Source: a virus
Taxonomy: Duplodnaviria; Caudoviricetes
Length of the DNA: 37,210 nucleotides
Direction: 5' to 3' (one strand)
Virus record (IMG/VR): IMGVR_UViG_3300034357_000099
Location: 1-37,210 of that record
Shown: positions 1 through 37,210 of the stretch, in pieces
Position numbering within the stretch: the first letter of the stretch is position 1
Layout of the letters: each line of letters starts with the position of its first letter
Translations under genes and position numbers: made by a program
The notes under the pieces: model-generated
What the model was told of the DNA's origin: nothing
Databases searched by the model: none
The model's input: only the letters and a program-made list of their open reading frames with translations

Positions 1-127
1 ATCTGTGGAGCCATGCGTGCAGCGCCAAAGTCTGTGTTGAGGTTAAACTCTGCGTCTTGTGGTGCGCCTACCCATTCAGCCATCCAGTTAAGCGAACGCT
101 CAATGGCATCCGATGCCGAGCGGCTAA
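1..127. repeat. Terminal direct repeat, left copy (circular assembly overlap)
   Basis: Bases 1-127 are identical to 37084-37210. 127 is a common assembler k-mer size and the portal ORF continues in frame across the join. Confidence 0.95.
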
Positions 128-1289
128 TAGATGCAAGCACTGACCTCTCACCCGCAGTCCGCAGCTCTAATGTGCCAAAGGCTTCTGCTGTGCGCTTATC
201 GTCGGCAAGCATCCGTGCGCCAAGCACTGCCATGCGCTGTTCTTTGTCCTTGAGCGCCTGTTGAAGCGTCTTTAGGCCATCGCCCTTAAACTCTAGGTAT
301 TCAGCCTTAGCGGATGGGTCAGGGAATACCCATGCCGTCATTGAGCCAATGGAAAGCGTTTGGCCCTCTGCTAACTGAACACCAGCAACGTAAGGGGTTG
401 GCAAGCCAGTGAAGTGCAAGCCATGCTCATAGTCTGCGCTGTTGCGGTAGTGAGCAAGGTTAGTGTCCACTAAGTCAAGCAATGGTGGCTTAGTCACTGT
501 GGTTGACGCGCTGTTAGCCCCAAGCACTGTGAACGGGATGTAGCGCATTGGCTGGCCCTGTTGCAGCGGGTAGACTTCTTGCAGCAGTTCGTTGTTGTCG
601 TTTATGATGCGGACGCGATAGCCTTGCTCCGTAAGGTCAAGCACCCGATAGCGTATCACTTCTTCAGACGTAAATTCGTCTTGGTAAACTTCCGCAGCCT
701 CACGCAGCACCACAAGCGTCAGCGTTTCAGCGCCGTTGATGTAGTTTGTGCGCCAGTTAATAATGCTTTCTGCTGAATACCACCGCAGGAATGGGCGGAC
801 GTTCATTGCCTCTGCCGCTGCTACAGTCAGGTTAGTTGGCATATTAGATGGATAATCCACCATGATGCCTACGCGACCTACGGCAATCTGTTGCTCAACA
901 ACCTGTTCGCTAAACTCCCGAAGATTTGTGCCTGACAGCGTTATATCGTCAGTAAAGGCTTCAATGGCAGTTGGTAGCTTCCACGTTGGGTCTTTGCTGA
1001 ATATCATGCCTGTGAACGCATCTAGGGTGCGTCCAGTGGCGTTGAAGAAGCCAGCCCGTTCCTGATACGCAATATAGTCAGGGTCGGTCTGGTTAATCAA
1101 GCGAGGCAAATAGTCATTGCCTGTGTAGTCTGGGTTATACAAACTGCCAGCATACTTCGCGCCATACTGAACCTTAGCCCCGTATTTCACTTGCTGGATT
1201 AGTGCATCTCTGCCCTGTATAACGTCACGACAACGCTGCCATTTATAGCGGTTAGCGTCATATTCTTTGTGGGTGGTATCGACGGCCAT
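1..1289 (-). CDS. Portal protein (DUF4055-like), 5' part; continues at 37083-36843, about 509 aa in total
   Basis: ATG at 1289 directly after the TerL stop (MAVDTTHKEYDANRYKWQRCRDVIQG...). 1289+241 nt = 510 codons, in frame with the 36843-37166 ORF. Position after TerL is typical. Missed by the ORF track because of the contig edge. Confidence 0.88.
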   Translation of the reverse strand, partial: MAVDTTHKEYDANRYKWQRCRDVIQGRDALIQQVKYGAKVQYGAKYAGSLYNPDYTGNDYLPRLINQTDPDYIAYQERAGFFNATGRTLDAFTGMIFSKDPTWKLPTAIEAFTDDITLSGTNLREFSEQVVEQQIAVGRVGIMVDYPSNMPTNLTVAAAEAMNVRPFLRWYSAESIINWRTNYINGAETLTLVVLREAAEVYQDEFTSEEVIRYRVLDLTEQGYRVRIINDNNELLQEVYPLQQGQPMRYIPFTVLGANSASTTVTKPPLLDLVDTNLAHYRNSADYEHGLHFTGLPTPYVAGVQLAEGQTLSIGSMTAWVFPDPSAKAEYLEFKGDGLKTLQQALKDKEQRMAVLGARMLADDKRTAEAFGTLELRTAGERSVLASISRSASDAIERSLNWMAEWVGAPQDAEFNLNTDFGAARMAPQ

Positions 1290-2543
1290 CTAAACCCCTG
1301 CGATTTGTGCAAATGAAACTGTTCCACGTCCAATACCATACTTATACGCAATAAGGTAGCCAATGGCATCGTTTAAGTGGTCTAGCCCTGTAGTTTTATC
1401 TGGTTCGCCTGTTTTATTGTATGCTTGGCGCTCCAAACCTTCAACTAAATTGGGGCATTTGTCGGGGTTTACCAACAATCTACGGACGCCCTGATTATGG
1501 ATTATTTGGTTCAGTGCCATCACCCTATCTTTAACTGCTGGGTTTTTATTGGGAGCCAGCACAGTGAAGCCAGCCGAGCGCAGCAAGGTTATATCCGATA
1601 GGCTTGCGTTGACGCTCTTGGTGGCCCCGCCTGACGCATCTGGGTAGACTGTGATGGCATGGCCTTGGTAACGCTCTATCAGCGCCCTAATCATCGTAGG
1701 CGTGTCCCTGACGCCTGTTAGCTCATCAAGGGCTAGTGGATTGCCATTGCGGATGACGCAGACGATGGCGCTCATGTTGTTGACGTTGAAGTCTAGCCCG
1801 ATATGCAAAGGCTCCCTTGGCTGTATGTGCTCAAAGGTAATGTTTAGCTTGCGGTCAAACTCTGGGTAAACGCTGCCAGCCGTTAGGTTGACAAACTCGC
1901 CATCCAAATATGCGGACAATAGGCTTGTGGAATATGTTGCCTGTAAGTTCTTTATGTAATCCTCTGGCAAGTTGGCTGCGTTATCAGCGGTCTTGGCCTT
2001 ATACAGCGCATAGCCTTCAGCCTTGTTCTTTACCCAGCGGTCATAGACGAAGCGGAAGCCTTCTGGCGTTGTCGCAACGCCAACTGTGTTGCGGACAGGC
2101 TTACCAGATACAGTGAAAGCCTTTTGGCGGTTACGCGCAATAATCTTGTTCCAAACTGCACGGGCCTTTTCTAGCGGCAGCGTGTCAAGCTCATCCACTA
2201 TGCTGTGCGCCACCTCATAACCAACGATGCGGTCAGGTTGTTCCATGTTGCGAAAGATGATGCGGCCTAGTTCCGTTTCCATGACAGCCTTTTGCTGGTT
2301 CAGCTTGAACGGGATGCCGTTACGCTCAAACAAAGCGGGGAAGCGTTGAAAAGCAATATCCTCAATCAGCGGATAGGTAGGCAAATAATATGCAACATCT
2401 TGATATGGACAGTATCGCTTGAGGCGCATTAGTCGCGCTATACCAGCCGCAGTCTTACCAGAACCAAAGCCGCCAACAAAGGCGGGGAATGGCACTTCGC
2501 TATATATAAAATCATGCTGGCTGGTGGTAAACTTCAAAGCCAA
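1290..2543 (-). CDS. terL: Terminase large subunit
   Basis: Walker A GGFGSGKT, Walker B IVDE, nuclease motifs GLDFN and DHLNDA; lies between TerS and portal. Confidence 0.95.
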   Translation of the reverse strand: MALKFTTSQHDFIYSEVPFPAFVGGFGSGKTAAGIARLMRLKRYCPYQDVAYYLPTYPLIEDIAFQRFPALFERNGIPFKLNQQKAVMETELGRIIFRNMEQPDRIVGYEVAHSIVDELDTLPLEKARAVWNKIIARNRQKAFTVSGKPVRNTVGVATTPEGFRFVYDRWVKNKAEGYALYKAKTADNAANLPEDYIKNLQATYSTSLLSAYLDGEFVNLTAGSVYPEFDRKLNITFEHIQPREPLHIGLDFNVNNMSAIVCVIRNGNPLALDELTGVRDTPTMIRALIERYQGHAITVYPDASGGATKSVNASLSDITLLRSAGFTVLAPNKNPAVKDRVMALNQIIHNQGVRRLLVNPDKCPNLVEGLERQAYNKTGEPDKTTGLDHLNDAIGYLIAYKYGIGRGTVSFAQIAGV

Positions 2544-2926
2544 TCTTCATCCGTGATGGGCTTAAACTTTAGGTCAACTGATAGCTTAGTTGGCTCGTTA
2601 TAGCCGTGCATGATGTTAAGCTCTTTAACCGCAGCCGTCATGCCTGTTGAGGTCTTGGCCTCCAGTGCAATTTTATAGGCGCTCATCAAGCCTTTAACGG
2701 ACATTTCGCGTGTCCATAGCTGCTTCTCAACCACTTGCGATTTTAGTTCAGCAACTCTTGCTGCAACCTTGCTGTTGCTCATTAGCCGCGAAGCGTTGGG
2801 GTAAACAGTCGCATCCTTCATCTGTTCGGCGTCATAAGCCATGCGATAAGCGTCCGCTTGCCCTAAGCCATCAGCTATAGCTTGGGCGAAAGCTTCTTGC
2901 TTTGCGGTTAGTTTAATTTCAGCCAT
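2534..2926 (-). CDS. terS: Terminase small subunit
   Basis: N-terminal LTAKQEAFAQ...AYRMAY...ASRL helix-turn-helix pattern typical of TerS; overlaps the TerL start. Confidence 0.88.
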   Translation of the reverse strand: MAEIKLTAKQEAFAQAIADGLGQADAYRMAYDAEQMKDATVYPNASRLMSNSKVAARVAELKSQVVEKQLWTREMSVKGLMSAYKIALEAKTSTGMTAAVKELNIMHGYNEPTKLSVDLKFKPITDEDWL

Positions 2927-2941: not shown

Positions 2942-3721
2942 CTATAAGTTTGCGAACGATTTGAGCGCATACCACACATGAGAATTACGATAGCCGTTTT
3001 TATGCGTTGGAATGATTGGAGTGACGCCGTGCATATTTCGCCAAGCTGGATATACTAACATTGAATTGTCTGTCTGGTCAAATGTCGCCCCATAATCAGG
3101 AACGTGCAAATTCCCTCCAGTGCTATTCCTGCGCTTAGTGATGATGATGTTGATTGCACCCTTCACGTTGGCATGGTCTTGGTGAATGGGTGCGGAGATA
3201 TTGCAGTTGCTAATGGTTGAGCTAAAGTGCTTAGCGAAGCGCCATTCTTCAGGTATTTTCTGTGCTACTTGCTCCAGATGCGTTTTGGCAACGCTGGGAA
3301 TGTATTGCTCCACCAGTTCAAAAGCCTTTATTCCAGCAGCATTCATAGCCCTAGCAAATGTCTGCGCTGATTTTACGCCATGAACAGATGAGCGTGAGGC
3401 ATACGGCCTACGCATATGTGGCTTGGGTGGGCATGAGCCAAGGATTGTGCTGTATTGCTTCACTTCCGCCTCAGCGTTATGCAAACCAGATGAGCGCCGC
3501 ATTTCCGATTTAGGGACGCGACTAGTTTGTATTTCAGCATCAGCGATATTGATGAGGTTCTGTAAATCGTCTGGCAGCGTTCGTAAGTATAATCCTACTT
3601 CACTACCATCTGGGTCTACAAGGACGCAATCTTCAGTAACATTTGGCTCCAATCCCTCTGGTTGGCTACCAATGCCTATAAGCCTCTGAATAGGCGTCAA
3701 GGTGAGTTTAGGTAATGTCAT
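2942..3721 (-). CDS. 2OG-Fe(II) dioxygenase, TET/JBP-like (candidate methylpyrimidine oxidase)
   Basis: FSSTISNCNISAPIHQD (HxD), GGNLHVPDY, MHGVTP (distal His) and YRNS (2OG-binding RxS) follow the TET/JBP double-stranded beta-helix pattern. Confidence 0.8.
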   Translation of the reverse strand: MTLPKLTLTPIQRLIGIGSQPEGLEPNVTEDCVLVDPDGSEVGLYLRTLPDDLQNLINIADAEIQTSRVPKSEMRRSSGLHNAEAEVKQYSTILGSCPPKPHMRRPYASRSSVHGVKSAQTFARAMNAAGIKAFELVEQYIPSVAKTHLEQVAQKIPEEWRFAKHFSSTISNCNISAPIHQDHANVKGAINIIITKRRNSTGGNLHVPDYGATFDQTDNSMLVYPAWRNMHGVTPIIPTHKNGYRNSHVWYALKSFANL

Positions 3722-4413
3722 TTGGCGAAACAGAAAACATTAGTGCACGCAGGGAACCAGCTTTTTTGCCACATCGTTTCCCGTTGGTCATCATAACAAA
3801 ATCTGTGCATTTCACCCTCAATACGATAGTCTTCTTTCTGCTTATCAATGACATTCCATAACCTGACCAATGACGGGTCAATATCGAAAGACCATTCGTA
3901 AACTAGCTTCCGAAATTTAGCCTTGGTGTTTTCTAAAATTGGCATTTCTGCGCCCTCAATATCCATCTTACAACCGTCAAAGCCGATGGCCTCATTATCG
4001 AAATTTAAACAAGGGACTTTGATAGCTTTTTCATTCCATTTTCTGACAATAGAATTGCGCCATACTTGGCTATTATTGCCTATGTATAGAATTACGCTTT
4101 CACGGTCATCATGCACCAATGCTGCCTGTTTAATATCTGCCTTAAACCCATTAAGCCGAAGGTTCTTTGCTATCATGTCGCAATTAAACTCATCTGGCTC
4201 ATAGACCGTTACCTCTGCGCCAAGTGCACAGGCAAGCAAAGTGAACGCCCCCACATTGCCTCCGCAATCCATCCATCGTTCTTCTGGTCTAATATCTAGA
4301 CCACGCTTTAGGTAAGTCTTGCGGCCAATGACTTCCTCGAAAGTTTTTAGGTCGCTGAAACCAGTGCGATGATAGAATTTAATCTTACCGATTGAACCTT
4401 GCTCTAATTTCAT
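3718..4413 (-). CDS. FkbM-family SAM-dependent methyltransferase
   Basis: WMDCGGNVGAF (motif I), VYEP and KMDIEGAE are FkbM signatures. ATGA overlaps with both neighbours. Confidence 0.85.
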   Translation of the reverse strand: MKLEQGSIGKIKFYHRTGFSDLKTFEEVIGRKTYLKRGLDIRPEERWMDCGGNVGAFTLLACALGAEVTVYEPDEFNCDMIAKNLRLNGFKADIKQAALVHDDRESVILYIGNNSQVWRNSIVRKWNEKAIKVPCLNFDNEAIGFDGCKMDIEGAEMPILENTKAKFRKLVYEWSFDIDPSLVRLWNVIDKQKEDYRIEGEMHRFCYDDQRETMWQKSWFPACTNVFCFAK

Positions 4414-4997
4414 GCCGACAAAGCCTCAATTAATTTTAGGCCAACATATTCGCCACGCTTGCGTGCAGCATCAACCAAGTCTTTCGCTTTCTGATAATCT
4501 TCAGCTTGAAACTCAATCTGTATAGCCTTCATAACTCCACTTGCTAAATCAGCAGTTGGGTCATCCAAATCATCAAGCGCCGAATAATCAGGCTCTTTGG
4601 CGAAAGTTGGAATATCATCGCCCCAGCCAAGCAACGAAATATCGAAGTCAAGCTCCAGCAATGCCTCTAATTCGGATTGCAGCAAATTGTCATCCCAATC
4701 AGCGGTTAATGCTAGTTGGTTGTCAGCAATCACCAAAGCCCTGCGCTGCGCCTCACTTAAATGGTCAAGGACTATTACAGGAACCTCCACCATACCAAGT
4801 TTTCTTGCCGCAAGCGTCCTTGCATGGCCAGCGATGATGGTATCGCCAGCATCAATCAAAATGGGGTTTGTCCATCCAAACTCTTTGATGCTTGCGGCTA
4901 TCTGCGCCACCTGTGTATCGCTGTGGGTGCGACTGTTAGCTGCGTAAGGTATTAGGTCAGCAACAAGGCGCTGTTCAATCTTTGGTGCGTCTATCAT
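4410..4997 (-). CDS. ParB/Srx N-terminal domain protein, without a fused methylase
   Basis: LIPYAANSRTH...IAASIKEFGWTNPILID...IIAGHARTLAARKLG...IADN is the phage ParB-like domain; short acidic linker and small C-terminal domain. Confidence 0.88.
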   Translation of the reverse strand: MIDAPKIEQRLVADLIPYAANSRTHSDTQVAQIAASIKEFGWTNPILIDAGDTIIAGHARTLAARKLGMVEVPVIVLDHLSEAQRRALVIADNQLALTADWDDNLLQSELEALLELDFDISLLGWGDDIPTFAKEPDYSALDDLDDPTADLASGVMKAIQIEFQAEDYQKAKDLVDAARKRGEYVGLKLIEALSA

Positions 4998-9692: not shown

Positions 9693-9694
9693 GC

Positions 9695-9901: not shown

Positions 9902-9920
9902 TTAAATTTTCTTTCGATTG

Positions 9921-9963
9921 TGGATAAAAAACGCTTTTAATTTCCGTTTGTCGCGTTTACAAG
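9921..9963 (+). promoter_or_regulatory. Putative rightward early promoter
   Basis: TGGATAAAAAACGCTTTTAA-17 nt-TACAAG in an AT-rich divergent gap. Confidence 0.55.
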
Positions 9964-27506: not shown

Positions 27507-27563
27507 TAAAAAAACCTCCATGCATGAAGAAACAAATAAAACTCTTTGCGAATGATAAACAAA

Positions 27564-27950
27564 TCACCGCAAATCGCGTTTCATGTTATCAATAGCAATT
27601 CGCACCATACCACGTTCAGCTTGTTTAGACCACCCTTCAAACTCAAGGCGGTAAATGTATGGCAAATTGTTACTAATCCAAAATACGTTGCCAGTAGCTT
27701 TAGCAATATCTGGCATGGCGCGACCAATAGCTAGACTTTCGGCTGGTGACTTGCCGCCTTCAAATTCAATGGTTGCGCCAGATGGTGAACCAATAGATGT
27801 GAACCAATTAGCTTTAGCCCTGCCAGTATCTACGGGTGTATCGTAAACTATGTCTTTAAGTAAATTTAAGCACAGTTCACGAACCACCTTGTCAGCGTTG
27901 CCTTCAGCCTTTTTTACAAACTTGCTTATATCAAGCGTAAAGGTGCTCAT
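27564..27950 (-). CDS. HK97 gp10-like tail completion protein
   Basis: TPVDTGRAKANW, NNLPYIYRLEF.GWSKQA..GMVR. Confidence 0.85.
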   Translation of the reverse strand: MSTFTLDISKFVKKAEGNADKVVRELCLNLLKDIVYDTPVDTGRAKANWFTSIGSPSGATIEFEGGKSPAESLAIGRAMPDIAKATGNVFWISNNLPYIYRLEFEGWSKQAERGMVRIAIDNMKRDLR

Positions 27951-28342
27951 ATAAACGCCCTGTATGTAACTGATACTGGAACCACCCAGCGGTCACCAGA
28001 CATGAACGCCGCAGCCTGTGACGTTGATAGGATGGTGACAGTCACATCATCATAGACCAGCCTGTCGCCACGCACGAACGCCCCTGCAACAGTGTCAGCA
28101 GTCAAGCGGCCAATGCCCTTACCTGCGTCCGCTGGAGAATAGACCAGCACTTGATAGATGCCGCCATACTCATCCGATGCTTCGCTTGCGATGCCTACAG
28201 CAATGGTGTTGCCAGCAATGAGGCTTTCAGCAAGGTAAACCTGCCCAGCAGTCGGCTTAAAGCGTGAGTTCTCCCACGCCGTAGGAATGTTCAAGGTTGC
28301 CAGTTGCGTTGATAACGCTGCACCAATTTTAGTAAGGCTCAT
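27947..28342 (-). CDS. Tail terminator-like protein (DUF4128-like)
   Basis: AWEN..F.P, GIYQV.V..P...G, W.VPVSV.YRA; position. Confidence 0.75.
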   Translation of the reverse strand: MSLTKIGAALSTQLATLNIPTAWENSRFKPTAGQVYLAESLIAGNTIAVGIASEASDEYGGIYQVLVYSPADAGKGIGRLTADTVAGAFVRGDRLVYDDVTVTILSTSQAAAFMSGDRWVVPVSVTYRAFI

Positions 28343-28499
28343 CGAAAGGCTCCGCCACTTGCATATCTACCGCCACTTTTTCGCCATTATCTAGCAAAAG
28401 AATATAGGCGATGATACCGCCGCTGGTATCATGCAGGACGCTATCTAACGTGCCTACGTTCCAATCACAGGGGAACCAAACTCTGGTGCCGATTTCCAT
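28329..28499 (-). CDS. Small hypothetical protein (56 aa, not in ORF track)
   Basis: TAATG coupling; MEIGTRVWFPCDWNVGTLDSVL...AYILLLDNGEKVAVD fills the gap. Confidence 0.6.
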   Translation of the reverse strand: MEIGTRVWFPCDWNVGTLDSVLHDTSGGIIAYILLLDNGEKVAVDMQVAEPFDEPY

Positions 28500-28852
28500 T
28501 AGTTAGCCCTCACCTGACAAATAAAGATAATGTCTTGACCCGACAGCCGAATGCTTTGGATGTCCATGACGCGATAGGTTGTGTTGTTAATTTCAATAAG
28601 GCAACCAATGACAGGCTGTGGGTCAATCAGTTCCATGATAAAGCGTATATCACCCGCTTGAATTACCACCCCATCAATATCCTTGGTGTGATATTTTGAT
28701 GGGTAGCCGACAGCGGTTACAGTGCTTGTTGTGCTGCTACCAACGTCTTCGCCAGTGATAGGGTCGTATTCCGCCCAATCCGTAAAGGTGACAGTGACTT
28801 CCTCGCCGTATTTGGCAAGCAGCCTAGCAGCGGTTTGTGCCTGTCCGCTCAT
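28499..28852 (-). CDS. Head closure / head-tail joining protein
   Basis: A.RLL.KYG, YDPITG, IDG..IQ.GD; position. Confidence 0.72.
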   Translation of the reverse strand: MSGQAQTAARLLAKYGEEVTVTFTDWAEYDPITGEDVGSSTTSTVTAVGYPSKYHTKDIDGVVIQAGDIRFIMELIDPQPVIGCLIEINNTTYRVMDIQSIRLSGQDIIFICQVRAN

Positions 28853-29361
28853 ACTCGGTTTATTCTTACCTGTGAAAAGCTGCCGTCAGATGACGAAACC
28901 AAATATGCGGCAAGCATACGATTGACGAACGGATAGCGTTGCGTTGGGTCTGAATAGTCTTGATATTCAATCTCAATGACATCAATTTTCTCGCGCTTCA
29001 CTCGCTGCCCTTGGTCGGCAATCAGCGTTTCACCACCAGCGGCACGGACAGCCATTTCAATGCAAGAATAAACTAGGGGAAGGGGTAGCACGTTAGCATC
29101 CAGCAGGAAGCCATCCACGATGACGTTAGAGCGAGGCCACGATAGCGATTGTGTTGCAGTAATGCGGTTACCCTTCCACGCATCGCGGTAGGTAGCCTCA
29201 AGGTAATCAGTCGCGTTTATCAGCGCCTGTTGCTTGATTGTGTTTGTAAGCGTTGACCAGCCAGCAATGCCACGGTCAGCCACATAGCCATCCGCAGCCG
29301 AAACGCTGGCATAACTATTGGCGTTTGGAACACCAGAACCTGTTTCGACTACGAATGCCAT
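28849..29361 (-). CDS. Head-tail adaptor (DnaT-like domain family)
   Basis: VVETGSG.PNANSYAS...AL..ATDYL...WKG.R....Q.LSWPR. Confidence 0.8.
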   Translation of the reverse strand: MAFVVETGSGVPNANSYASVSAADGYVADRGIAGWSTLTNTIKQQALINATDYLEATYRDAWKGNRITATQSLSWPRSNVIVDGFLLDANVLPLPLVYSCIEMAVRAAGGETLIADQGQRVKREKIDVIEIEYQDYSDPTQRYPFVNRMLAAYLVSSSDGSFSQVRINRV

Positions 29362-29364
29362 GTA

Positions 29365-29652
29365 TTAATCCTTTTTTGGACGGCCACGCTTTGATGGCTT
29401 GAAGCTAACTTCTTCCGCCTCATACGCTAGTGGCGTATCTTCTTCTGCTTCTGCTTCTGCTTCAGCTTCAGCTTCAGGCTCATCAGCAACCTCTGGCTCT
29501 GCCGTAACAGGCGCATCTTCTTCTTCAATCTTTTGATGAATTGGTGTGCCAGCGGGTGCAAAGCTTGCGTCGATGATTTTATAACCCTCTGCTTGCAGTT
29601 TAGCTTTACGCGCTGGGTTTACTGGATGCGGCTCATAAATGATTTTAGCCAT
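29365..29652 (-). CDS. Hypothetical head-associated protein
   Basis: Start moved to ATG 29652; IYEPHPV...K..L...GYKIIDA.F, acidic EA repeat, C-terminal KRGRPKK. Confidence 0.7.
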   Translation of the reverse strand: MAKIIYEPHPVNPARKAKLQAEGYKIIDASFAPAGTPIHQKIEEEDAPVTAEPEVADEPEAEAEAEAEAEEDTPLAYEAEEVSFKPSKRGRPKKD

Positions 29653-29674
29653 AAACAATCCTTTCAATAAGGTT

Positions 29675-29700
29675 AGGGGCTGTCATGAGCGACAGCCCCT
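29675..29700 (-). terminator. Hairpin after major capsid gene
   Basis: 10 bp stem AGGGGCTGTC/GACAGCCCCT just past the capsid stop; weak U-tract. Confidence 0.6.
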
Positions 29701-29711
29701 TTCCTTTACTC

Positions 29712-30683
29712 TTACAGGTCAGCGTCACCAACAGCAAGAACACCAGCAGTGTGCTTGATGGAAGTGGCAACCTTGTCCCAGTTGGAACCAGTTGCGAGTT
29801 CTGCATCGGTTGGCGACTTGCCACCGTTTACAGTATCCCATGTGTAGCCCTTCAGAGCCACGCCAAAGGTGTAATCGACCTGCATTGTGGTTTCGATGCG
29901 GGTCTGACCATTGCTGGTTTCGATGTTGCTGATAACGTCACCGCCATCATAAACAACAGCAGCACCATCAGCCAAGCCAAGCGCACGGGCGAGGTTTGGT
30001 GTGCCAGCAGCATACAGTGCAGGAGCATCAGTGACGATGACAGGACGGCCAAGGATGTCCACAACCTGAACATTCTGTGCAACGAACAACTGAGCGCCAT
30101 TGGTCAAGTTCTGACCAATGAGCTTGTGGTAGGTTGCGCCGTTGATGACGTTAGCAACGATGCTTGACGAATGGTCGCCAAACAAAGCGTTTGCGCTGTT
30201 CATTGTGCCATAGCTCAATGGGTCATCAGCCGAAACGTCTACAGTCGTTGCAGCGCCTTGGTTGCCGATTGCAGCAACAAGAGCAGCTATTGCAGTGTTC
30301 AACTGGTCAGCCATCAAAGCTTCAGCAAAGTTACGCGATGCAACTTCAATGCCTTCCGATGTAGGCTTCTGCAACCATGTAAGCTGCGAAGGCTCAAAGC
30401 GGATAGGGCCAAAGCCACCAGCAACCTTAACACCGCTGATTTGAAGCTGCGTAAGGTCAGTTGCAGTTGCCGAAGCTTGCGATGCGTAGCGGTCTACACG
30501 GCGCTGTGCCGAGTGGATAGCAGCGAAGAAGCTCTCTTGGTAAAAGTCGCCATCAAAACCAGTGGTGGTCAAACGGATTGCGCCGTTGGATGCACCGTTA
30601 AACTTGTCAACCATTTGCGAGAGCGTCTCGATGGTGGCTGGCATTACGTATTCATTGAATACCTTCATTTGCGAAAGTGACAT
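29712..30683 (-). CDS. Major capsid protein
   Basis: 323 aa after the scaffold with AAGGA RBS; VDKFNGASNGAI.L, GYTWD...GG.SPT...LATG.NW....TS.K.TAGV. Confidence 0.88.
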   Translation of the reverse strand: MSLSQMKVFNEYVMPATIETLSQMVDKFNGASNGAIRLTTTGFDGDFYQESFFAAIHSAQRRVDRYASQASATATDLTQLQISGVKVAGGFGPIRFEPSQLTWLQKPTSEGIEVASRNFAEALMADQLNTAIAALVAAIGNQGAATTVDVSADDPLSYGTMNSANALFGDHSSSIVANVINGATYHKLIGQNLTNGAQLFVAQNVQVVDILGRPVIVTDAPALYAAGTPNLARALGLADGAAVVYDGGDVISNIETSNGQTRIETTMQVDYTFGVALKGYTWDTVNGGKSPTDAELATGSNWDKVATSIKHTAGVLAVGDADL

Positions 30684-30695
30684 AACTTAAAATCC

Positions 30696-31289
30696 TTATG
30701 GTAGGTCAGGGAACATATTTTTAATTGCGTTTACCCGCTGCCCTTTATCGCCGCCTAGGTTGCCCTTGGGTGCGATAGGTGTGCCATTACCGTTTCCGCC
30801 AGTGGCTCCACCACCAGAATTTGCGGGAGCAGAAACGAAGTGCTTGCCTTCGTCACTAGCGGCCCATTCAGTAATTGCATCAAGCAACGGCTTGTCACCC
30901 ATGAGTGCAGAATATTGACCATTCTCCGCTGTCACCTTGGTATTAGCCTTCAACATCGCCTTTGCAGCCGACATGAATTCTGGCTTGATACCTGCTTTCA
31001 GCATCGCATCGTTAAGCCCGTTGTCGATTAAATAAGACTGCAATGCGCCATCTTTTTCTGTCAGGCTTGATTGCAATGTTTCAATCGCTTTGGTGCTTTC
31101 CTTTGTGGTCTTGGTTAGCTCCGATTTCAGCGTTTCATTTTCGTTTTGTAACGCTGCGTATTCGGCGGGGTCTATTTCAGCACCTTTGGCTTTCGCCTTT
31201 GCTACCTTAACTTCACCCAGCAACTGATTATTCTTTGCGCTAAGAACCTCAATCGCTGCTTCTAACTCTGCTATTTTATCTTCACTCAT
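30696..31289 (-). CDS. Capsid scaffolding protein
   Basis: Coiled-coil N-terminus, Gly-rich C-terminal tail (SGGGATGG); directly upstream of the capsid gene. Confidence 0.78.
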   Translation of the reverse strand: MSEDKIAELEAAIEVLSAKNNQLLGEVKVAKAKAKGAEIDPAEYAALQNENETLKSELTKTTKESTKAIETLQSSLTEKDGALQSYLIDNGLNDAMLKAGIKPEFMSAAKAMLKANTKVTAENGQYSALMGDKPLLDAITEWAASDEGKHFVSAPANSGGGATGGNGNGTPIAPKGNLGGDKGQRVNAIKNMFPDLP

Positions 31290-31295
31290 AGGTTT

Positions 31296-31346
31296 GTCCT
31301 CTGGACTTTGTTGCCCCTCTGGGGCGGTTGGCGCTCTGGCTCTGCC
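31296..31346 (-). promoter_or_regulatory. Tandem CAGAG hairpins in the scaffold leader
   Basis: GGCAGAGCC, GCCCCAGAGGGGC and GTCCAGAGGAC; the last contains the GAGGA RBS. Confidence 0.65.
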
Positions 31347-31394
31347 TCGGCGTTAGCTTGCTATTAACACATTTAGAAACGCTTGACTATAACG

Positions 31395-32426
31395 TCACGG
31401 TTTCCCGTATTTACGTTCTAATTGTGTCAACGACAATGGGTTGCCACGCTGGTCTAATAGCTGGCTTAAAGTTATCTTGCCTGAGCGCCAAAGTTCAGCG
31501 CGGCCCTTGCCTAGCATCTCATCTGCAAACTCTGGCGGCTTGTTCTTTAGGAATTGGTCAAAGGTTAAGTCTTGGGCAACTGAACCATCCATGCTTGCGC
31601 GAGTTCTTGGCGCAATCTGGTCTTTAGCCTTACCCGTTATCTCGGACATTGAGCGCGTGACGGGTATTGATGTTGAGCGGCAAGCCCAATGAGCGGGTGG
31701 CCCACCATTCCACGGGATGCTGTGACCGATGGGCTTGAAGTCTGGAAACGTCCATGTCTTGCCAGAACGCGCCATACATATTTCGGTGGTGCGGCTATCC
31801 AACGTAGATACCCATTGCACCGCCTTGATAATGTCAGCGTTTTCCATGTAGCTTGCCATGCGAACGTCATTAGCCACAGTTTGCGTTGCCGTGCGTGTGA
31901 CAGCCATTGCATCGCGCCGTGCCTTAGCAATAGGCTCACCGCCCTTGTCGCCAGTGCCCATGATTGACTTGGCAATCTGCGCGTTTGTCAAACCAAGGCT
32001 TACACCGTTCTTAACAGCGCGGTTGATGTTAAAGCGTGCGCTTTCGTTTAACTGACTGAACCAACTGCCGATGGTCGCGCCTTGCGTTAGCGATGACTTG
32101 GCTATTTCATTTATAACGCTTGTGGCTGGCAATACAGCGTCAATGCCTACACTAGCGAATGCGCCGTTCATAAATGATGCCTCAGATGCAGCGATGCCAG
32201 CAAGGTCAGGTGCATCCAGCTTCATGATGCTGGTCAGTTCAGCTATTGCCTTATCAAGACGCTTGCCTTGATATTCCGTTAACTCTTTACCTTTTAATGC
32301 CTTGGTGATTTCCGCAGCTATGCTGTCCAGTTGCTTGTTCAACGCAATGTTTTCGCCAGCAATAATCCGCTCCAACAGAAGCTGGCGTATCGTTAGTAGG
32401 TCAAGCAGTTGGTCAGATACGCTCAT
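31395..32426 (-). CDS. Head morphogenesis protein (SPP1 gp7 / Mu gpF-like)
   Basis: WVSTLDSRTTEIC, PPAHWACRS, RASMDG.V...TF..FL. Confidence 0.88.
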   Translation of the reverse strand: MSVSDQLLDLLTIRQLLLERIIAGENIALNKQLDSIAAEITKALKGKELTEYQGKRLDKAIAELTSIMKLDAPDLAGIAASEASFMNGAFASVGIDAVLPATSVINEIAKSSLTQGATIGSWFSQLNESARFNINRAVKNGVSLGLTNAQIAKSIMGTGDKGGEPIAKARRDAMAVTRTATQTVANDVRMASYMENADIIKAVQWVSTLDSRTTEICMARSGKTWTFPDFKPIGHSIPWNGGPPAHWACRSTSIPVTRSMSEITGKAKDQIAPRTRASMDGSVAQDLTFDQFLKNKPPEFADEMLGKGRAELWRSGKITLSQLLDQRGNPLSLTQLERKYGKP

Positions 32427-32434: not shown

Positions 32435-34483
32435 CTATAAAATGCTGAAAAATGCACCAGTGTTTCCACCCACTGGCGCAGCCGTGAATATCACGTTTAG
32501 GTTATTGCCGCCGTCAGTTGAGTTTACACCGACATAGAAGCGGTTGGCTTGGTTTACGCCAATATCCCTGACGCTCAGATAGTCAATGCCAGTGGTGACG
32601 TTGGTTAGGTTGAACGTGCGGCGCAATGCTGTGCCCTCGCTGTCTACCGTAATGACATTGCCTACCGTGCCTGTAATGCTCCAAGTGCCGATAGTGCCAA
32701 GGTTGTCTTTGAAGAGGACAGTGTAGGCAACGGTCTTAGTAGATGCAAGTTCAGTGAATGATGCCGCGCCCTCAATGGTAGTGGTGGACACGCCAGTGGC
32801 GCCGCCTATTGTCAGTTTATTGAATGACAGACCGCCACTAATAAAAGTTCTGGAATTATTCGTCGTATTAGACAGCAGAATGTTGGCAGTACCTTTGTTA
32901 AAGGTAAGACCTGTTGTGGTGGCAGTAGTCCAGACTGTTCCTGTGCCGCTCAACGTCCACAGCCCTGACCCCATCGTAATGGTGCGAGTGACGCTATTGC
33001 TTGAACTAAATGTCGTGCAAATCAGATTATAATTAAACGCATCAAACGTGCCGCGAGTGAGTGTAATGGTGTTGCTTGCGGTATAAGCACCCCCAAGTTG
33101 GAACGTCCCGCTAGGAGCATCAACCGTAACTGGAAATGTGATGGTCTTACCCGCGCTGGTGAACACCATCGTGCTGCGACCAGAGAAGGTTTGGGTTCCA
33201 TTGCCAGATATAGTTAAGCCTGAACCATACGATACAGAACCATATAGAGTTATAGGTGAGTTTGTATGATTAAGCGTCATTGCGGACGTTCTGGTGGATG
33301 CATCAATAATGCCGATGTTGTATGCAATTAAACTAACAGTCCCCGCAGAGCCGCTATTTGTAAATGTCGCTGTATCTTGCGCCAAGGGGAAGTTGTTTAC
33401 TGCTGGAGTTCCGTTTGAGGTTGTCGCCCATGCAGTTGAGTTCCAGTTTTGTGTTCCAGTAAGGTTCCAATAAACCGTCTTTGCCGCAGGGAACGTAATG
33501 CCGCTATTGCCGCCGCAGTCGCCGCCACGGGTAGGCGAGATAGGAGAAGCAGCCCCAGCAATCGTAATGTCACGGAAGTCGCAGTCGGTGGCAGATACAG
33601 CCGCACAGGTGAGGGTGCGTGTTGTGCCAATGGTATCAGAACGAACAAAGCCACGTTGGATGGCGGATGTGCCAGCGCAGGTGAATGTGCCGATGACTGT
33701 TTGGTTGCCGTTAATAGATAGCTGGCTTAGGCCCGTTGCGCTGGCGGTTAGTGTCAGGTTGTTAAAAGTTTGTGAAGAGCCACCTGATTGGCTTATTTGG
33801 CGAGTTCCAACGGCGGTGCTGGTGAAGGAGACGTTGTGGAATGTTTGATTGCCGCCCGAAAAGATTACACCAGCGTTACTTAAAGATATTTGGGAAGTTC
33901 CCGCATTAAACGTCAAGTTAACGGAGTTCGCAAAGGTTAACGCAGCCCCACCACCACTCAATGTAACCGTGCTTGACCCTAGCGTAATGGTTCGCACCGT
34001 TGATGCGCTAGACGACAAATTCCCAGCAGTTACACTATAATTTGCAGTATCAAAAGTGCCAGTTAAAACAGTCAGTGACCTAGTTGACATATTCAACGCA
34101 TCACCCAGCGTAACCGTGATGCCAGAACCATCTAGCGTCACGGCACTAAACGTCTTACCCGCAGTAGTCAGCGTCCCTGTGCCAGTGAACCCCACCGTGC
34201 CTGTGTGGGTGTAGGTCATGCCAGCAACAAGCGTGACGCTGCCAGCTACAATAATTGTAGCCGTGCCAGTAATCGTGCCTGTAAAGCCAGTGCAATTAAT
34301 AGACTTCGCGCCAGTGTTGCCCGTAGCAATCGTGCAAGTGCCAGTGGATAAGGCGCTAAAAAACACATCATCAGCGGTAGTTGGAACAGACGCGCCACCA
34401 GAACCGCCAGAGGTAGTAGACCACTTAGTCCCTGCCGTGCCGTCCCAAGACGCCGATCCGCCAACCCAGAAGCGGTCAGCCAT
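32435..34483 (-). CDS. Large Thr/Gly/Ser-rich beta-helical adhesin-like virion protein
   Basis: RFWVGG...WD......WSTTSGG.GGASVP...DDVFF motif recurs mid-protein (VYWN....NW....WATTS.G.....P...D), suggesting an internal duplication. Confidence 0.65.
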   Translation of the reverse strand: MADRFWVGGSASWDGTAGTKWSTTSGGSGGASVPTTADDVFFSALSTGTCTIATGNTGAKSINCTGFTGTITGTATIIVAGSVTLVAGMTYTHTGTVGFTGTGTLTTAGKTFSAVTLDGSGITVTLGDALNMSTRSLTVLTGTFDTANYSVTAGNLSSSASTVRTITLGSSTVTLSGGGAALTFANSVNLTFNAGTSQISLSNAGVIFSGGNQTFHNVSFTSTAVGTRQISQSGGSSQTFNNLTLTASATGLSQLSINGNQTVIGTFTCAGTSAIQRGFVRSDTIGTTRTLTCAAVSATDCDFRDITIAGAASPISPTRGGDCGGNSGITFPAAKTVYWNLTGTQNWNSTAWATTSNGTPAVNNFPLAQDTATFTNSGSAGTVSLIAYNIGIIDASTRTSAMTLNHTNSPITLYGSVSYGSGLTISGNGTQTFSGRSTMVFTSAGKTITFPVTVDAPSGTFQLGGAYTASNTITLTRGTFDAFNYNLICTTFSSSNSVTRTITMGSGLWTLSGTGTVWTTATTTGLTFNKGTANILLSNTTNNSRTFISGGLSFNKLTIGGATGVSTTTIEGAASFTELASTKTVAYTVLFKDNLGTIGTWSITGTVGNVITVDSEGTALRRTFNLTNVTTGIDYLSVRDIGVNQANRFYVGVNSTDGGNNLNVIFTAAPVGGNTGAFFSIL

Positions 34484-34484
34484 T

Positions 34485-34730
34485 TCAGCCCTCCACAGGC
34501 TTCAGCACAACCTGACCGTCAATCTCAACGCGCTCATAGGTCACGCCGTCAATCTCAATGGTTTCTGGCTCAGGTGCTGGCGGGTTTTCTACAGCGAACA
34601 GCCAGTTATCCAGCCGCTCCTGCTTCATGGCCGCTATTTCTTCTTCTGTGAACGTGTGGTCATCATCTAGGTGCAGCGCATCACGAAAGACGCCGTAAGC
34701 AGTAGTGAACTCAAATACAATTCTCATCAT
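34485..34730 (-). CDS. Small acidic protein (possible fibre chaperone)
   Basis: FEFTTAYGVFRDALHL......EEI.AMKQ.RLDNW; coupled between two fibre genes. Confidence 0.6.
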   Translation of the reverse strand: MMRIVFEFTTAYGVFRDALHLDDDHTFTEEEIAAMKQERLDNWLFAVENPPAPEPETIEIDGVTYERVEIDGQVVLKPVEG

Positions 34731-36112
34731 GCCTCCTGTGACAGAGCAATCGCATCCCAGCGAAGGTCTGTTGAGTTATATTTGCAGCCTATATACATCG
34801 CCTTAGTCGCTACGGTTATTGTAGGCAAGGTAATGCCAACAGCGCGATACGCTCCAGATGCGCCCGTAGTCCAAGTCAGCGCACGGGCCGTGCCATTGTC
34901 CTCAATGCGGATGACTAAGGATTGCCCGTCTGATGGTGTGCCAGAGGGTGATGCAATGGTGGCAGGGACGGCCAAAGCCGTGACCGAGACTTGCGTGTCA
35001 GTGTTGGCGTTTGGCGTAATCGTTGAAGCGGAAGCAATGGATTGCACGCTTTGAAAAGTAGATGGGTTTGCCGCATTATAGGGAGTATAGCCAAGTGCCG
35101 TTGCAATAGACTTCTTTTCCCATAGGCTTGTTGATGTGTTGTAAAACAAGCCATCGTTGTTGGCGGGAGACACAGCCGACACATCGTGCAACTCATCCAT
35201 CTCATAGCCGTTTTGTACTGTGACAAACAAGCGGCCAGAGGTAACATGGCTTTTAATGCAGCGTGCAACATAGACCATATGAATGGGCGCAACAGTCTTG
35301 GTTTGCGTCAATGCACCCGCAGTAGTGCCTGACAGATAAAGCTGTGCGCCAGCGGTAAATGCGGACGTATCAATGTTCTCAATGATGCCTAGCGTTGTTA
35401 CCCAACCCTCTGCGCCGTCAGCAATGCTTTCAGCTACAATGCCAAGCGTGCGTGCAGATGTTGCATCACCCGTTGCTAAGGCTAGTGCAACCGTAGGACG
35501 CTGCCCTTGTGCGCCGTTGCTGTAGACCACTTGGCCCTTAGTCAATGCAGAGCCAGTGCCGTTATAGACAAGCACTTGCTGTGATTGCCCTACCTCTTGA
35601 ATGACATTGCCGCCCTTTAGTGTGTAGGCCAGGCCGCCTTCGCCATCATTAAAAAACAGCTTACCAGTTGCGGGGGTAACAGTTGCCGCAGTATCAAATT
35701 GCACAAAGTCGGGCGATGATATACCGCCTGTAATGCCCGTCAGTGATGTTATGTCGCCGTTAGCACCCAATACAGCGGCGCTAAGGTTTGCACGCGCTGT
35801 AGCTGCGTCTGTGGCCCCTGTGCCGCCATTAGCAATGCCAAGTGTGCCGCCAAGGGTTAGCGTGCCAGATGTAGTGATAGGTGAGCCAGTGAATGACAGA
35901 CCAGTTGTGCCGCCAGATGCAGCCACGGACGTTACTGTTCCGCTACCGCCACCGCCGCCTGAGCCAATCTCAACAATGGCGGGCGTGCCATCATCCTTCT
36001 TTAGGAATAGCTTGCCGTCATAAGTGTTGATTGCCAACTCACCCAAGGCGAGGTCAGCAATACTTGGAACCTTGGCAGGAACCGCACTACGTTTAAACTT
36101 CATCAAGGCCAT
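34727..36112 (-). CDS. Fibre protein (mosaic)
   Basis: N-terminal KRSAV..KVP...L..GELAINT.DGKLF, IANGGTGAT.AA.AR.NL, and a central VYN.TG....GQVVY...G.....IA.G..G.V...G module recalling capsid-decoration domains. Confidence 0.7.
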   Translation of the reverse strand: MALMKFKRSAVPAKVPSIADLALGELAINTYDGKLFLKKDDGTPAIVEIGSGGGGGSGTVTSVAASGGTTGLSFTGSPITTSGTLTLGGTLGIANGGTGATDAATARANLSAAVLGANGDITSLTGITGGISSPDFVQFDTAATVTPATGKLFFNDGEGGLAYTLKGGNVIQEVGQSQQVLVYNGTGSALTKGQVVYSNGAQGQRPTVALALATGDATSARTLGIVAESIADGAEGWVTTLGIIENIDTSAFTAGAQLYLSGTTAGALTQTKTVAPIHMVYVARCIKSHVTSGRLFVTVQNGYEMDELHDVSAVSPANNDGLFYNTSTSLWEKKSIATALGYTPYNAANPSTFQSVQSIASASTITPNANTDTQVSVTALAVPATIASPSGTPSDGQSLVIRIEDNGTARALTWTTGASGAYRAVGITLPTITVATKAMYIGCKYNSTDLRWDAIALSQEA

Positions 36113-36152
36113 GTGGCATTCCCTTTATTGCTATATAGCTGGGTTATATTAC

Positions 36153-36842
36153 TTAATACGTTCCGCCATCAAAAACACCAGCAGTATTTATCCATTTTGA
36201 TGTTGATGCGTTATACTGCAAAACATCTAGGTCAGAAAGGTCTGTTATAACAACATCCTCTAAATCTGACAGCCTCTTGGCTCCGCCACCACCGCCGCCA
36301 AATGAACCGCTTGGCTTGGCAACGGGTAGCTCTATTTGTGTCTCTTGCCCGTCAGTCAGCGTAATCCAAAAAGACTTATCGTCGCGCTGTTCCACAAGTG
36401 CAATGCCAACACCATCAACACCATTGGAACCATTACGACCATCGCGGCCATTAGTCCCGTCACGCCCAGCAGCACCACTAGCACCGTCAGCACCATCTCG
36501 ACCGTCACTGCCACGCAATGTTTCGCGGTTAAGGTCAAACCATATATCAACGGCAGCTTGTATTTCTTCGTCTGTGGGTGGGCGTCCTTGTTGTCCGACC
36601 TGTCCATCTTGTCCGTCCTGTCCGTTTGCTGGCTGGGTGATGTTCTCCCGTAGCCAATTCTCAGCAGCATCCTTGATTTGCTGGTCACTAACAGGTGGCG
36701 CATCATCCCCACGCTCTCCTTGTGGGCCAGCCTCGCCCTGTGGCCCTTGTATCATGGGCCTTGAAGCTGCATCATTGACGCGCAAATTGAGCGCGGCAAC
36801 AGCCTCGACTAGCGAGGTGACAATTTCCTCGCTGATTGCCAT
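36153..36842 (-). CDS. Collagen-like (Gly-X-Y) fibre protein
   Basis: GPQGEAGPQGERG, GQDGQDGQVGQQG, GSDGRDGADG...; starts 1 nt after the portal stop; ends DGGTY. Confidence 0.78.
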   Translation of the reverse strand: MAISEEIVTSLVEAVAALNLRVNDAASRPMIQGPQGEAGPQGERGDDAPPVSDQQIKDAAENWLRENITQPANGQDGQDGQVGQQGRPPTDEEIQAAVDIWFDLNRETLRGSDGRDGADGASGAAGRDGTNGRDGRNGSNGVDGVGIALVEQRDDKSFWITLTDGQETQIELPVAKPSGSFGGGGGGAKRLSDLEDVVITDLSDLDVLQYNASTSKWINTAGVFDGGTY

Positions 36843-37210
36843 TTAGAGACCAAGCCTCTGACGGATGTTAGCCATCAAGGTTTGTTCTGCTACGTTGTCG
36901 CTATCGTCATCCTCTGGCTCAAGCACAACGTCTTGCGCGAATGATGGGCCTTCGTCTGCAAGCATAGCTTCATATTCCTCAAACTCCATTTGCGGGTTGA
37001 CTAGTTCACCGCGCTGGAAGTTATCAAACAATACGGACAGCGGCATTGCGTCACCTTGATATGCACCCATCAATGCGCTTACCATCTGTGGAGCCATGCG
37101 TGCAGCGCCAAAGTCTGTGTTGAGGTTAAACTCTGCGTCTTGTGGTGCGCCTACCCATTCAGCCATCCAGTTAAGCGAACGCTCAATGGCATCCGATGCC
37201 GAGCGGCTAA
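36843..37210 (-). CDS. Portal protein, 3' part (continuation of 1-1289)
   Basis: In frame with the 5' part across the circular join; LNTDF...L...YQG....S..LF...QRGE, acidic tail. Confidence 0.88.
   Translation of the reverse strand, partial: SRSASDAIERSLNWMAEWVGAPQDAEFNLNTDFGAARMAPQMVSALMGAYQGDAMPLSVLFDNFQRGELVNPQMEFEEYEAMLADEGPSFAQDVVLEPEDDDSDNVAEQTLMANIRQRLGL
37084..37210. repeat. Terminal direct repeat, right copy
   Basis: Identical to 1-127. Confidence 0.95.

What the first reader, a model, noticed from the sequence alone, without database searches (positions are those of the whole stretch)
1..37083. Genome-wide purge of GATC, GANTC, CCGG, CCWGG and GTAC
Seen by manual scan: GATC 1 (34455), GANTC 0, CCGG 0, CCWGG 1 (35629), GTAC 2 (32889, 35215). 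Uniform base composition predicts roughly 145 for each 4-base motif and roughly 70 for CCWGG. Other palindromes (GGCC, GCGC, AGCT, CATG) are common. Known: GATC, CCWGG and GANTC are the Dam, Dcm and CcrM targets, and all five are common type II restriction sites. Inference: strong selection from several R-M systems, or from methyl-directed nucleases, even though the phage has a candidate modification cassette.
Basis: partly seen in the sequence, partly recalled or inferred. Interest (0 to 1): 0.72.

Follow-up and report, generated by a model that had tools for sequence, protein, structure and literature searches.

The report
Phage purged of restriction sites
This complete freshwater phage genome has lost almost every copy of more than thirty short DNA words, likely because its bacterial hosts cut DNA at those words, and its short-tailed relatives, which share its replication genes, keep exactly the five commonest of these words.

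Summary
The counts are exact: GATC 1, GANTC 0, CCGG 0, CCWGG 1, GTAC 2, against 101, 63, 65, 38 and 77 in a codon-preserving null. The purge is much wider than five motifs: GGWCC, RCATGY and 34 of 64 six-base palindromes are absent.

The window is a complete 37,083-bp siphophage with no integrase found, likely lytic and likely infecting a sphingomonad. The pattern fits type II restriction-site avoidance, a known strategy; this genome lies at its extreme end and is broader than T7. The ParB + FkbM + TET cassette does not relax it.

The new point is the comparison with relatives. P22-like podoviruses share and exchange this phage's replication genes and purge the same rarer sites, but keep GATC, GANTC, CCWGG, GTAC and part of CCGG. 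In motif-blind loci, 33 of 33 podoviruses keep GATC and 14 of 14 siphoviruses lack it. Most likely only the siphoviruses infect hosts with frequent cutters. Masking by adenine-modifying genes (26 of 33 against 0 of 14) or by co-ejected proteins is not excluded. The host is not identified, and no GATC-cutting family was found in the sampled sphingomonads. The scan noted site avoidance before on other DNA (e1-3410703).

The parts
1..37083 (.). Complete circularly permuted siphophage genome depleted of more than 30 type II restriction-type sites; no integrase or C5-cytosine methyltransferase among 60 ORFs scanned; no tRNA
37084..37210 (+). 127-bp duplicate of bases 1-127 (circular assembly overlap)
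34455..34458 (.). Only GATC, inside the 682-aa ORF; not present at this place in the podovirus homologue G346
35629..35633 (.). Only CCWGG, inside the 461-aa fibre-like ORF; ACAGG in G016 and G043
32889..32892 (.). Residual GTAC, 682-aa ORF
35215..35218 (.). Residual GTAC, 461-aa ORF; GCAC in four relatives
32435..36842 (-). Variable block between portal and head-morphogenesis genes (682-aa, 81-aa, 461-aa fibre-like, collagen-like ORFs); holds all 4 residual sites of the five motifs; the 682-aa gene is 74% identical in DNA to a gene of podovirus G346
4410..4997 (-). ParB-like protein, first gene of the modification slot
3718..4413 (-). FkbM-family methyltransferase (PF05050, TIGR01444); likely an O-methyltransferase for the oxidised base (inferred)
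2942..3721 (-). TET/JBP-like 2OG-Fe oxygenase (PF12851, E 3.5e-8, just under the curated cut-off; HQD motif in the translation); likely a ParB-dependent thymine dioxygenase (inferred from neighbourhood)
3..2926 (-). TerS, TerL and portal (portal continues at 36843-37083); the TerL type is the marker that separates purged siphoviruses from site-keeping P22-like podoviruses
9348..12937 (.). Resolvase-ERF-YqaJ-HNH-NinB-GapR-SSB block shared with the podoviruses (ERF 80-93% identical); 0 GATC and 0 GANTC here, 9-18 GATC and 7-15 GANTC in each of 12 podoviruses
12256..12540 (+). GapR-like nucleoid protein; host marker (9 of 9 organism-named rows among the best 120 homologues are Sphingomonadales, 68-73% identical)
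20816..32426 (-). Siphovirus head, neck, tail-tube and tape-measure genes

Best explanation
This complete siphophage genome lacks almost every copy of more than 30 restriction-enzyme-type words, likely because selection by the many type II restriction-modification systems of its likely sphingomonad hosts has removed them, and its TET cassette shows no sign of relaxing the purge. Shown: the depletion, its independence of codon use, its match to type II sites, its sharing across the siphovirus clade whatever sits in the modification slot, and the split from P22-like podovirus relatives. Inferred: a lytic phage moving between host strains with different enzymes is cut wherever an unmethylated site arises, so new sites are removed even from genes freshly exchanged with podoviruses. 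Inferred, weaker (about 0.5 on its own): the siphoviruses also infect strains that carry frequent (4-5 base) cutters for GATC, GANTC, CCWGG, GTAC and CCGG. The podoviruses, with an expected 55-158 copies of each, gain little from losing one copy at a time and stay out of such strains.
For: Null models. The most depleted of 520 enzyme sites tested are type II sites. The most depleted gapped words are interrupted palindromes: GCTNAGC, GACN3GTC, GCCN5GGC, CCAN5TGG. Nested specificities in relatives. No integrase among 60 ORFs; best capsid relative in GTDB genomes 80% or less; elimination is typical of non-temperate phages and type II sites (PMC6286503). EcoRII-C matches in 14 of 201, MvaI/BcnI in 7 of 121 and PstI-family in 4 of 171 sampled genomes of the candidate host family. 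TET-carrying genomes have six-base palindrome O/E 0.20-0.27 (n=4) against 0.22-0.34 (n=10), p=0.64. 40 of 40 loci of at least 9 kb from distant phages with a similar TET gene keep GATC. Split: ERF-selected loci with TerL in view, 33 of 33 podo GATC 0.49-0.81, 14 of 14 sipho 0-0.06. The ERF tree forces at least 4 label changes. The five motifs the podoviruses keep are the five most frequent of 34 compared, and RCATGY, GGWCC, RGATCY and GGYRCC (28-43 expected per 35 kb) are at 0.03-0.07 in them.
Against: The host is not identified. DpnII-family (0 of 171) and MutH/Sau3AI-family (0 of 121) GATC cutters were not found in the sampled family, and that family does not itself avoid GATC (pooled O/E 1.03) or CCGG (0.96); its palindrome profile correlates poorly with the phages' (rho 0.14). 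HindIII-family genes occur in 4 of 171 genomes although AAGCTT is spared in the window (26 sites). Over all 34 motifs, frequency does not predict podovirus retention (rho 0.11); rarer GCAGGC, CGATCG, ATCGAT, TTCGAA and AACGTT are also kept. 7 of 23 sipho-type genomes are partly or fully relaxed for GATC. Adenine-modifying genes track the split almost as well as the virion does. One 83% capsid homologue carries a Synechococcus phage label.
Confidence: 0.8

Rival explanations
1. Delete versus mask: the podoviruses keep the frequent sites because they usually carry an adenine-modifying enzyme (N6/N4 methyltransferase, Mom, phrog_799) next to the terminase, while the siphoviruses fill that slot with other cassettes and must delete the sites. 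This concerns the split, not the cause of the purge.
For: Such a gene is in 26 of 33 podo and 0 of 14 sipho ERF-selected loci. Siphoviruses with a stand-alone N6/N4 methyltransferase keep GATC in 3 of 3 lineages, and L249 relaxes GATC only (39/57). G043, 86% identical to the window in DNA and carrying ParB + Mom, has GATC 0.67 with GANTC, CCWGG and GTAC at 0. The slot is physically linked to TerL.
Against: 7 of 33 podo loci show no such gene yet have the same profile (some may be cut short). Eight sipho loci with a ParB-N6 fusion have 0 GATC and 0 GANTC inside the aligned methyltransferase part of that gene and 0-2 GATC in the whole locus. Four unrelated enzyme types give one uniform podovirus profile. 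Many A-containing sites (GCATGC, CCATGG, GATATC) stay purged in podoviruses. No specificity was tested.
Confidence: 0.2
2. Virion-linked protection: proteins co-ejected by the P22-like particle shield the DNA from, or inhibit, a host defence keyed on these frequent words, so podoviruses on the same hosts need not purge them.
For: Virion type is the best single predictor (35 of 36 against 7 of 39 dereplicated lineages). All 12 podoviruses have P22-like coat, gp10 and gp7-type genes, and those scanned have 850-1180-aa DNA-transfer-like proteins with long unannotated parts. Shared lysin, GapR, ERF and recombinants show co-infection of common hosts.
Against: No enzyme or anti-defence domain was found in the ejection proteins scanned. 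A general inhibitor should also relax six-base sites, which remain purged. Some sipho-type genomes relax GATC with no P22-like virion.
Confidence: 0.15
3. Methyl-directed attack or interference by host solitary methyltransferases (Dam-like, CcrM, Dcm-like): host marks on GATC, GANTC and CCWGG would make phage DNA a target for type IIM/IV nucleases or for methyl-reading regulators such as GcrA.
For: T7 eliminates only GATC and CCWGG among 4-5-base palindromes (6/143, 2/87), and Caulobacter phage DMCA is low in GANTC (34/142). Sampled sphingomonads are low in GANTC (0.37), and GANTC is the main m6A motif of Sphingomonas AAP5 (PMC8067484). The window encodes a weak GcrA-like HTH.
Against: It cannot cover the roughly 30 other purged words. 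GAWTC and GASTC behave separately in six relatives, which CcrM would not do. Siphoviruses with their own adenine enzyme regain GATC. Type IIM/IV sites are only weakly avoided in general (PMC6286503). DpnI-family not found in 171 genomes (no control rang).
Confidence: 0.1
4. Composition or artefact: codon, amino-acid or trinucleotide bias, or assembly, produces the gaps.
For: None found.
Against: (no shuffle came near), and orthologous podovirus genes that carry the sites.
Confidence: 0.01

Closest known systems
Restriction-site avoidance in non-temperate dsDNA phages (Rusinov et al. 2018, PMC6286503; read parts 1-4 of 5)
   Same: Elimination (O/E below 0.1) of orthodox type II sites, no type I-like signal, phage with no integrase found.
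   Different: Breadth is at the extreme end. There, 7.1% of type II site-genome pairs are eliminated, and hydroxymethylase-encoding coliphages avoid 2.4% of sites against 55.8%; here a base-modification cassette goes with no relaxation. A split by virion type within a recombining group is not treated in the parts read.
Coliphage T7 (NC_001604, counted here)
   Same: GATC and CCWGG nearly eliminated; many six-base palindromes absent (20 eliminated against 24 here).
   Different: T7 keeps GANTC, GTAC, CCGG and GGWCC; six-base palindrome O/E 0.45 against 0.27; T7 has Ocr, and no anti-restriction gene was recognised here.
ParB-dependent phage T-dioxygenases, Clade C1 5mYOX (O'Toole et al. 2026, PMC13229309; read parts 1-4 of 7, passages, one supplement row)
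   Same: TET/JBP gene next to a ParB-like gene and terminase, no C5-methyltransferase; FkbM O-methyltransferases occur in 6-7% of such contigs.
   Different: Activity and clade placement untested here. The paper reports partial, context-selective T oxidation, which fits the lack of relaxation.
Two anti-restriction strategies of plasmids (Shaw et al. 2023, PMC10359461; abstract and outline only)
   Same: Sequence tuning against carriage of protective genes; stronger avoidance with broader host range.
   Different: Plasmids split by size; here equally sized phages split by virion type inside one gene pool.
Alphaproteobacterial phage methyltransferases with CcrM-like GANTC specificity (PMC5537653; passages)
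   Same: The same broad host class; relatives of the window carry N6/N4 methyltransferases.
   Different: The window encodes none; specificities of the relatives' enzymes are untested.

Membership tests
Type II restriction-site avoidance | Sites far below composition-corrected expectation (O/E below 0.1) | tested here: met
   37 of 63 motifs at 0.10 or less of a codon-preserving null
Type II restriction-site avoidance | Depleted words are type II recognition sequences, not bipartite type I sites | tested here: met
   (3+n+3 words, spacers 1-8, pooled over 13 genomes)
Type II restriction-site avoidance | Non-temperate dsDNA phage | tested here: inconclusive
   No integrase among 60 ORFs; no close prophage among 50 GTDB loci; absence of lysogeny is not shown
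Type II restriction-site avoidance | Host species encodes the cognate endonucleases | tested here: inconclusive
   Host inferred to family only. EcoRII-C 14/201, MvaI/BcnI 7/121, PstI 4/171 found; DpnII 0/171, MutH/Sau3AI 0/121, HaeIII 0/171; HindIII 4/171 although AAGCTT is spared
Type II restriction-site avoidance | Added sites lower plating on restricting hosts | not testable with these tools
   needs cultured phage and host
ParB-dependent T-dioxygenase (5mYOX Clade C1) | TET/JBP domain with HxD iron ligands | tested here: met
   PF12851 E 3.5e-8 (33.3 bits, cut-off 34.9), HQD in the translation
ParB-dependent T-dioxygenase (5mYOX Clade C1) | Neighbouring ParB-like gene and no C5-methyltransferase | tested here: met
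   ParB directly adjacent in G001 and G002
ParB-dependent T-dioxygenase (5mYOX Clade C1) | Placement in Clade C1 by phylogeny | not tested
   no tree with the published enzymes was built
ParB-dependent T-dioxygenase (5mYOX Clade C1) | ParB-dependent conversion of T to 5hmU | not testable with these tools
   needs expression and nucleoside analysis
Modification that replaces site avoidance (T4 hydroxymethylase type) | Carriers show little avoidance | tested here: not met
   TET carriers are as purged as non-carriers
Methyl-directed (type IIM/IV) avoidance | Purge confined to host-methylated motifs, with cognate nucleases in the host | tested here: not met
   About 30 further motifs purged; DpnI family not found in 171 genomes, with no positive control ringing

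The most novel reading that the evidence does not exclude
One recombining freshwater phage population holds two stable anti-restriction states tied to the virion. Long-tailed members delete every GATC, GANTC, CCWGG and GTAC. P22-like members on the same hosts keep them because something they deliver or encode (a co-ejected protein or a terminase-linked adenine-modifying enzyme) neutralises just the defences aimed at these frequent words. That would be an undescribed, selective anti-restriction activity.
Probability: 0.25. Interest if true: 0.7.

Novelty: new variant of a known kind. Interest (0 to 1): 0.46.

Why it matters
Site avoidance is well known, so the observation as filed is an extreme example of a known strategy. 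The comparison adds a natural experiment on why some lytic phages eliminate frequent sites and others do not: the same genes, 80-93% identical, carry none of the sites in one virion type and about 10-18 GATC per 3.4 kb in the other. The purge also lists the likely restriction repertoire of uncultured freshwater hosts, and it suggests that a ParB-TET cassette gives no broad anti-restriction shield.

Tried and rejected
1. The TET cassette spares sites in its target context: rejected; no difference between carriers and non-carriers, and sites with TG or TA are purged.
2. GpC methylation protects GC-containing sites: rejected; no C5-methyltransferase was found and AGCGCT, TGCGCA, GCGCGC, CAGCTG are absent.
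3. A ParB-N6 methyltransferase fusion relaxes the purge (suggested by G007 and G008): rejected as a general rule.
4. A stand-alone N6 methyltransferase explains the relaxed group: not required once loci were picked by ERF.
5. Podovirus sites are confined to a late-injected part: rejected for GATC, GANTC and CCWGG, which are evenly spread; GTAC thins out in the replication half.
6. The four residual sites were inherited from a podovirus donor: not supported; the homologues seen lack them at those places. Their clustering in 10% of the genome is unexplained.
7. Host identification: no close prophage; cluster look-up gave no organism names; the self-avoidance fingerprint of 20 sphingomonad stretches gave no match (one short stretch dropped).
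8. PDB hits of the TET protein to TAL repeats are sums of weak repeat matches with 0 passing stretches.
9. Runs with small shares of words were not used as evidence of habitat.
10. The long unannotated parts of the podovirus ejection proteins remain uncharacterised beyond Pfam, PHROG and PADLOC scans.
11. Literature searches for a virion-linked split or for GANTC loss in alphaproteobacterial phages found nothing on point (open-licence library only).


Full report
Observation. They survive a maximal-order Markov correction and 300 synonymous-codon shuffles, whose minima were 72, 43, 49, 24 and 52. The purge is far wider than five motifs. GGWCC, RCATGY, GRGCYC and CYCGRG are absent; GGYRCC, GCAGGC, GCCCGC, CACGTC, GCTNAGC and GCCN5GGC have 1-2 copies; 34 of 64 six-base palindromes are absent (189 sites against 563 +/- 20). 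AT-rich palindromes such as AAGCTT (26), TTTAAA, AATATT and CATATG are spared. GGCC is mildly low (0.67 of the null); GCGC, AGCT and CATG are near expectation.

The genome. It is a complete 37,083-bp record with 127-bp terminal repeats, held by a lake-water run that may be its source. Sixty ORFs were scanned against PHROG and Pfam. They give a siphovirus virion, a lambdoid-type replication and recombination block (O-like initiator, resolvase, ERF, YqaJ, NinB, SSB), GapR, a weak GcrA-like HTH, no integrase and no C5-methyltransferase. Nine of nine organism-named rows among the best 120 GapR homologues are Sphingomonadales, so a sphingomonad host is likely but not shown. One capsid homologue at 83% carries a Synechococcus phage S-CBS4 label on a 105.6-kb record; no curated phage record exceeds 70%, so I take that record as possibly mixed, unverified. 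The best capsid match in GTDB genomes is 80% or less.

How extreme. T7 eliminates only GATC and CCWGG among 4-5-base palindromes, with six-base O/E 0.45 against 0.27 here. Among 75 dereplicated unrelated viral loci of at least 12 kb (found by TET, methyltransferase, capsid or YqaJ queries, so not a random sample), 3 eliminate six or more such motifs; the window's 15-kb thirds eliminate 6-7. GATC is eliminated in 1 of 75, GTAC in 3, CCWGG in 24, GGWCC in 19. The window is in the tail but not unique. PMC6286503 (parts 1-4 of 5 read) describes elimination as typical of type II sites in non-temperate phages.

Why type II restriction. The depleted words are enzyme prototypes. The most depleted gapped words, pooled over 13 siphovirus genomes, are interrupted palindromes; no asymmetric word with a 5-8 base spacer fell below 0.3. 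Where relatives relax a short motif, nested sites stay purged: residual CCGG sits mostly in GCCGGA or ACCGGA, GAWTC is at 0-0.10 while GASTC is at 0.32-0.55 in six genomes, and RGATCY stays low when GATC returns. In the candidate host family, EcoRII-C (14 of 201), MvaI/BcnI (7 of 121) and PstI-family (4 of 171) genes are patchy, as expected. Against a neat match: no DpnII (0 of 171), MutH/Sau3AI (0 of 121), DpnI (0 of 171) or HaeIII (0 of 171) family gene was found; HindIII-family genes were (4 of 171); and 20 sampled host-family stretches do not avoid GATC or CCGG. The family sample may simply miss the true host.

The modification cassette. ParB-like, FkbM-family and TET/JBP genes lie directly before TerS. 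That neighbourhood, without a C5-methyltransferase, is the one described for ParB-dependent thymine dioxygenases (PMC13229309, parts 1-4 of 7 and passages; FkbM in 6-7% of such contigs, supplement row). The slot is interchangeable in the clade: TET, TAGT glycosyltransferase, PAPS-reductase-like, GNAT, ParB-N6 fusion, Mom, or nothing. Only 3 of the 28 capsid- or clade-selected records searched carry TET (the other 10 of the 38 were picked for TET). Carriers are as purged as non-carriers (0.20-0.27 against 0.22-0.34, p=0.64), and 40 of 40 loci from distant TET-bearing phages keep GATC, though many lack CCWGG. The cassette neither causes nor relieves the purge.

The split. Picking relatives by the ERF gene, blind to motifs, gave two groups. 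Of 80 loci, 70 were at least 6 kb with ERF at 75% or more; 23 showed no TerL and were set aside; all 14 with the window's TerL type have GATC at 0-0.06, and all 33 with the other type have 0.49-0.81 (not dereplicated). A metagenome scan gave 4 of 4 and 11 of 11, partly the same contigs. After dereplication on TerL (167 to 75 lineages, some found through methyltransferase queries), GATC exceeds 0.3 in 35 of 36 podo and 7 of 39 sipho lineages. The other type is a P22-like podovirus (portal phrog_156, P22 coat, gp4, gp10, ejection proteins). Twelve such genomes keep GATC 0.53-0.74, GAWTC 0.70-0.93, CCWGG 0.39-0.59, GTAC 0-0.60 and CCGG 0.09-0.56, yet purge GGWCC, RCATGY, GGYRCC, RGATCY and most of the same six-base palindromes (rho 0.80 with the siphoviruses). 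Of 23 sipho-type genomes, 16 have GATC at 0.03 or less, 2 at 0.15-0.18 and 5 at 0.67-0.93; the 13 'core' genomes pooled were chosen from the first group after seeing the data. In the shared 3.3-4.2-kb resolvase-to-SSB block each podovirus has 9-18 GATC and 7-15 GANTC; 12 siphoviruses have 0 and 0-1 (in five of them ERF is only 34-42% alike). The ERF tree of 51 genes needs at least 4 changes of label on well-supported branches. Mosaics exist: all 27 GATC of G016 lie in one 10.7-kb block, and all sites of L260 in its first 2.6 kb. The two types therefore likely exchange genes in common hosts, and site content follows the virion.

What maintains the split. I take the likeliest reading to be exposure plus a fitness valley: siphoviruses infect strains with frequent cutters, and podoviruses gain little from losing one of a hundred sites (about 0.5). 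Frequency is not the whole story, since several rarer words are kept too (rho 0.11). Masking by adenine-modifying genes is the main rival (26 of 33 against 0 of 14; L249 and G043 regain GATC but not GANTC, CCWGG or GTAC), but eight siphovirus loci with ParB-N6 fusions stay purged inside the methyltransferase part itself. Protection by co-ejected proteins has no positive evidence beyond the association. The methyl-directed reading has the T7 and DMCA analogy for it and the nested specificities against it.

Novelty. Avoidance is known. Searches of the open-licence library for a virion-linked split, or for GANTC loss in alphaproteobacterial phages, found nothing on point (listings only). Subscription papers and bioRxiv supplements were not visible and may bear on this. 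The scan's notes hold another purged phage genome (e1-3410703) and nothing on the split. Verdict: real, explained in kind, with one testable new pattern.

Noticed in passing
window 2942-4997; G001-G016, G043, G344-G355: The slot between the ParB-like gene and TerS is a swappable DNA-modification cassette: TET with or without FkbM or a kinase, histidine-phosphatase/cytidylyltransferase + TAGT without any TET in the genome, PAPS-reductase/DUF3440, ABC/GNAT, ParB-N6 fusion, Mom.
   Followed up: partly
window 32435-36112: All four residual sites of the five motifs lie in this 10% of the genome, none is shared with the homologues seen, and each could be lost silently; the clustering is unexplained.
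   Followed up: partly
window 32435-36842: Fibre-like and collagen-like genes sit between portal and head-morphogenesis genes, not in the tail module; the 682-aa gene has a homologue beside the scaffold gene of podovirus G346, suggesting head-attached fibres shared across virion types.
   Followed up: no
window 5434-6183: PAPS-reductase-like gene with a weak PADLOC SspD match (E 1.3e-6); a contig in run X2 skips 5439-6232, so it is accessory.
   Followed up: no
G016 20418-31094; L260 1-2600; L258 126-3050: Sharp mosaic blocks that carry GATC, GANTC or GTAC inside otherwise purged genomes; recent recombinants or chimeric assemblies.
   Followed up: partly
G352: A podovirus with 0 GTAC while keeping GATC, GANTC and CCWGG: one motif purged on its own.
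   Followed up: no
L626:13284-13967 (G345) and six other podoviruses: A short tyrosine-recombinase gene, in G345 inside the virion module; found in 7 of 12 podoviruses; invertase or remnant, not tested.
   Followed up: no
P0218; L171; L181: An 83% capsid homologue labelled Synechococcus phage S-CBS4 on a 105.6-kb record, and purged phage-like contigs binned in an Actinomycetota and a Brevundimonas MAG; possible mixed assemblies or mis-binning.
   Followed up: no
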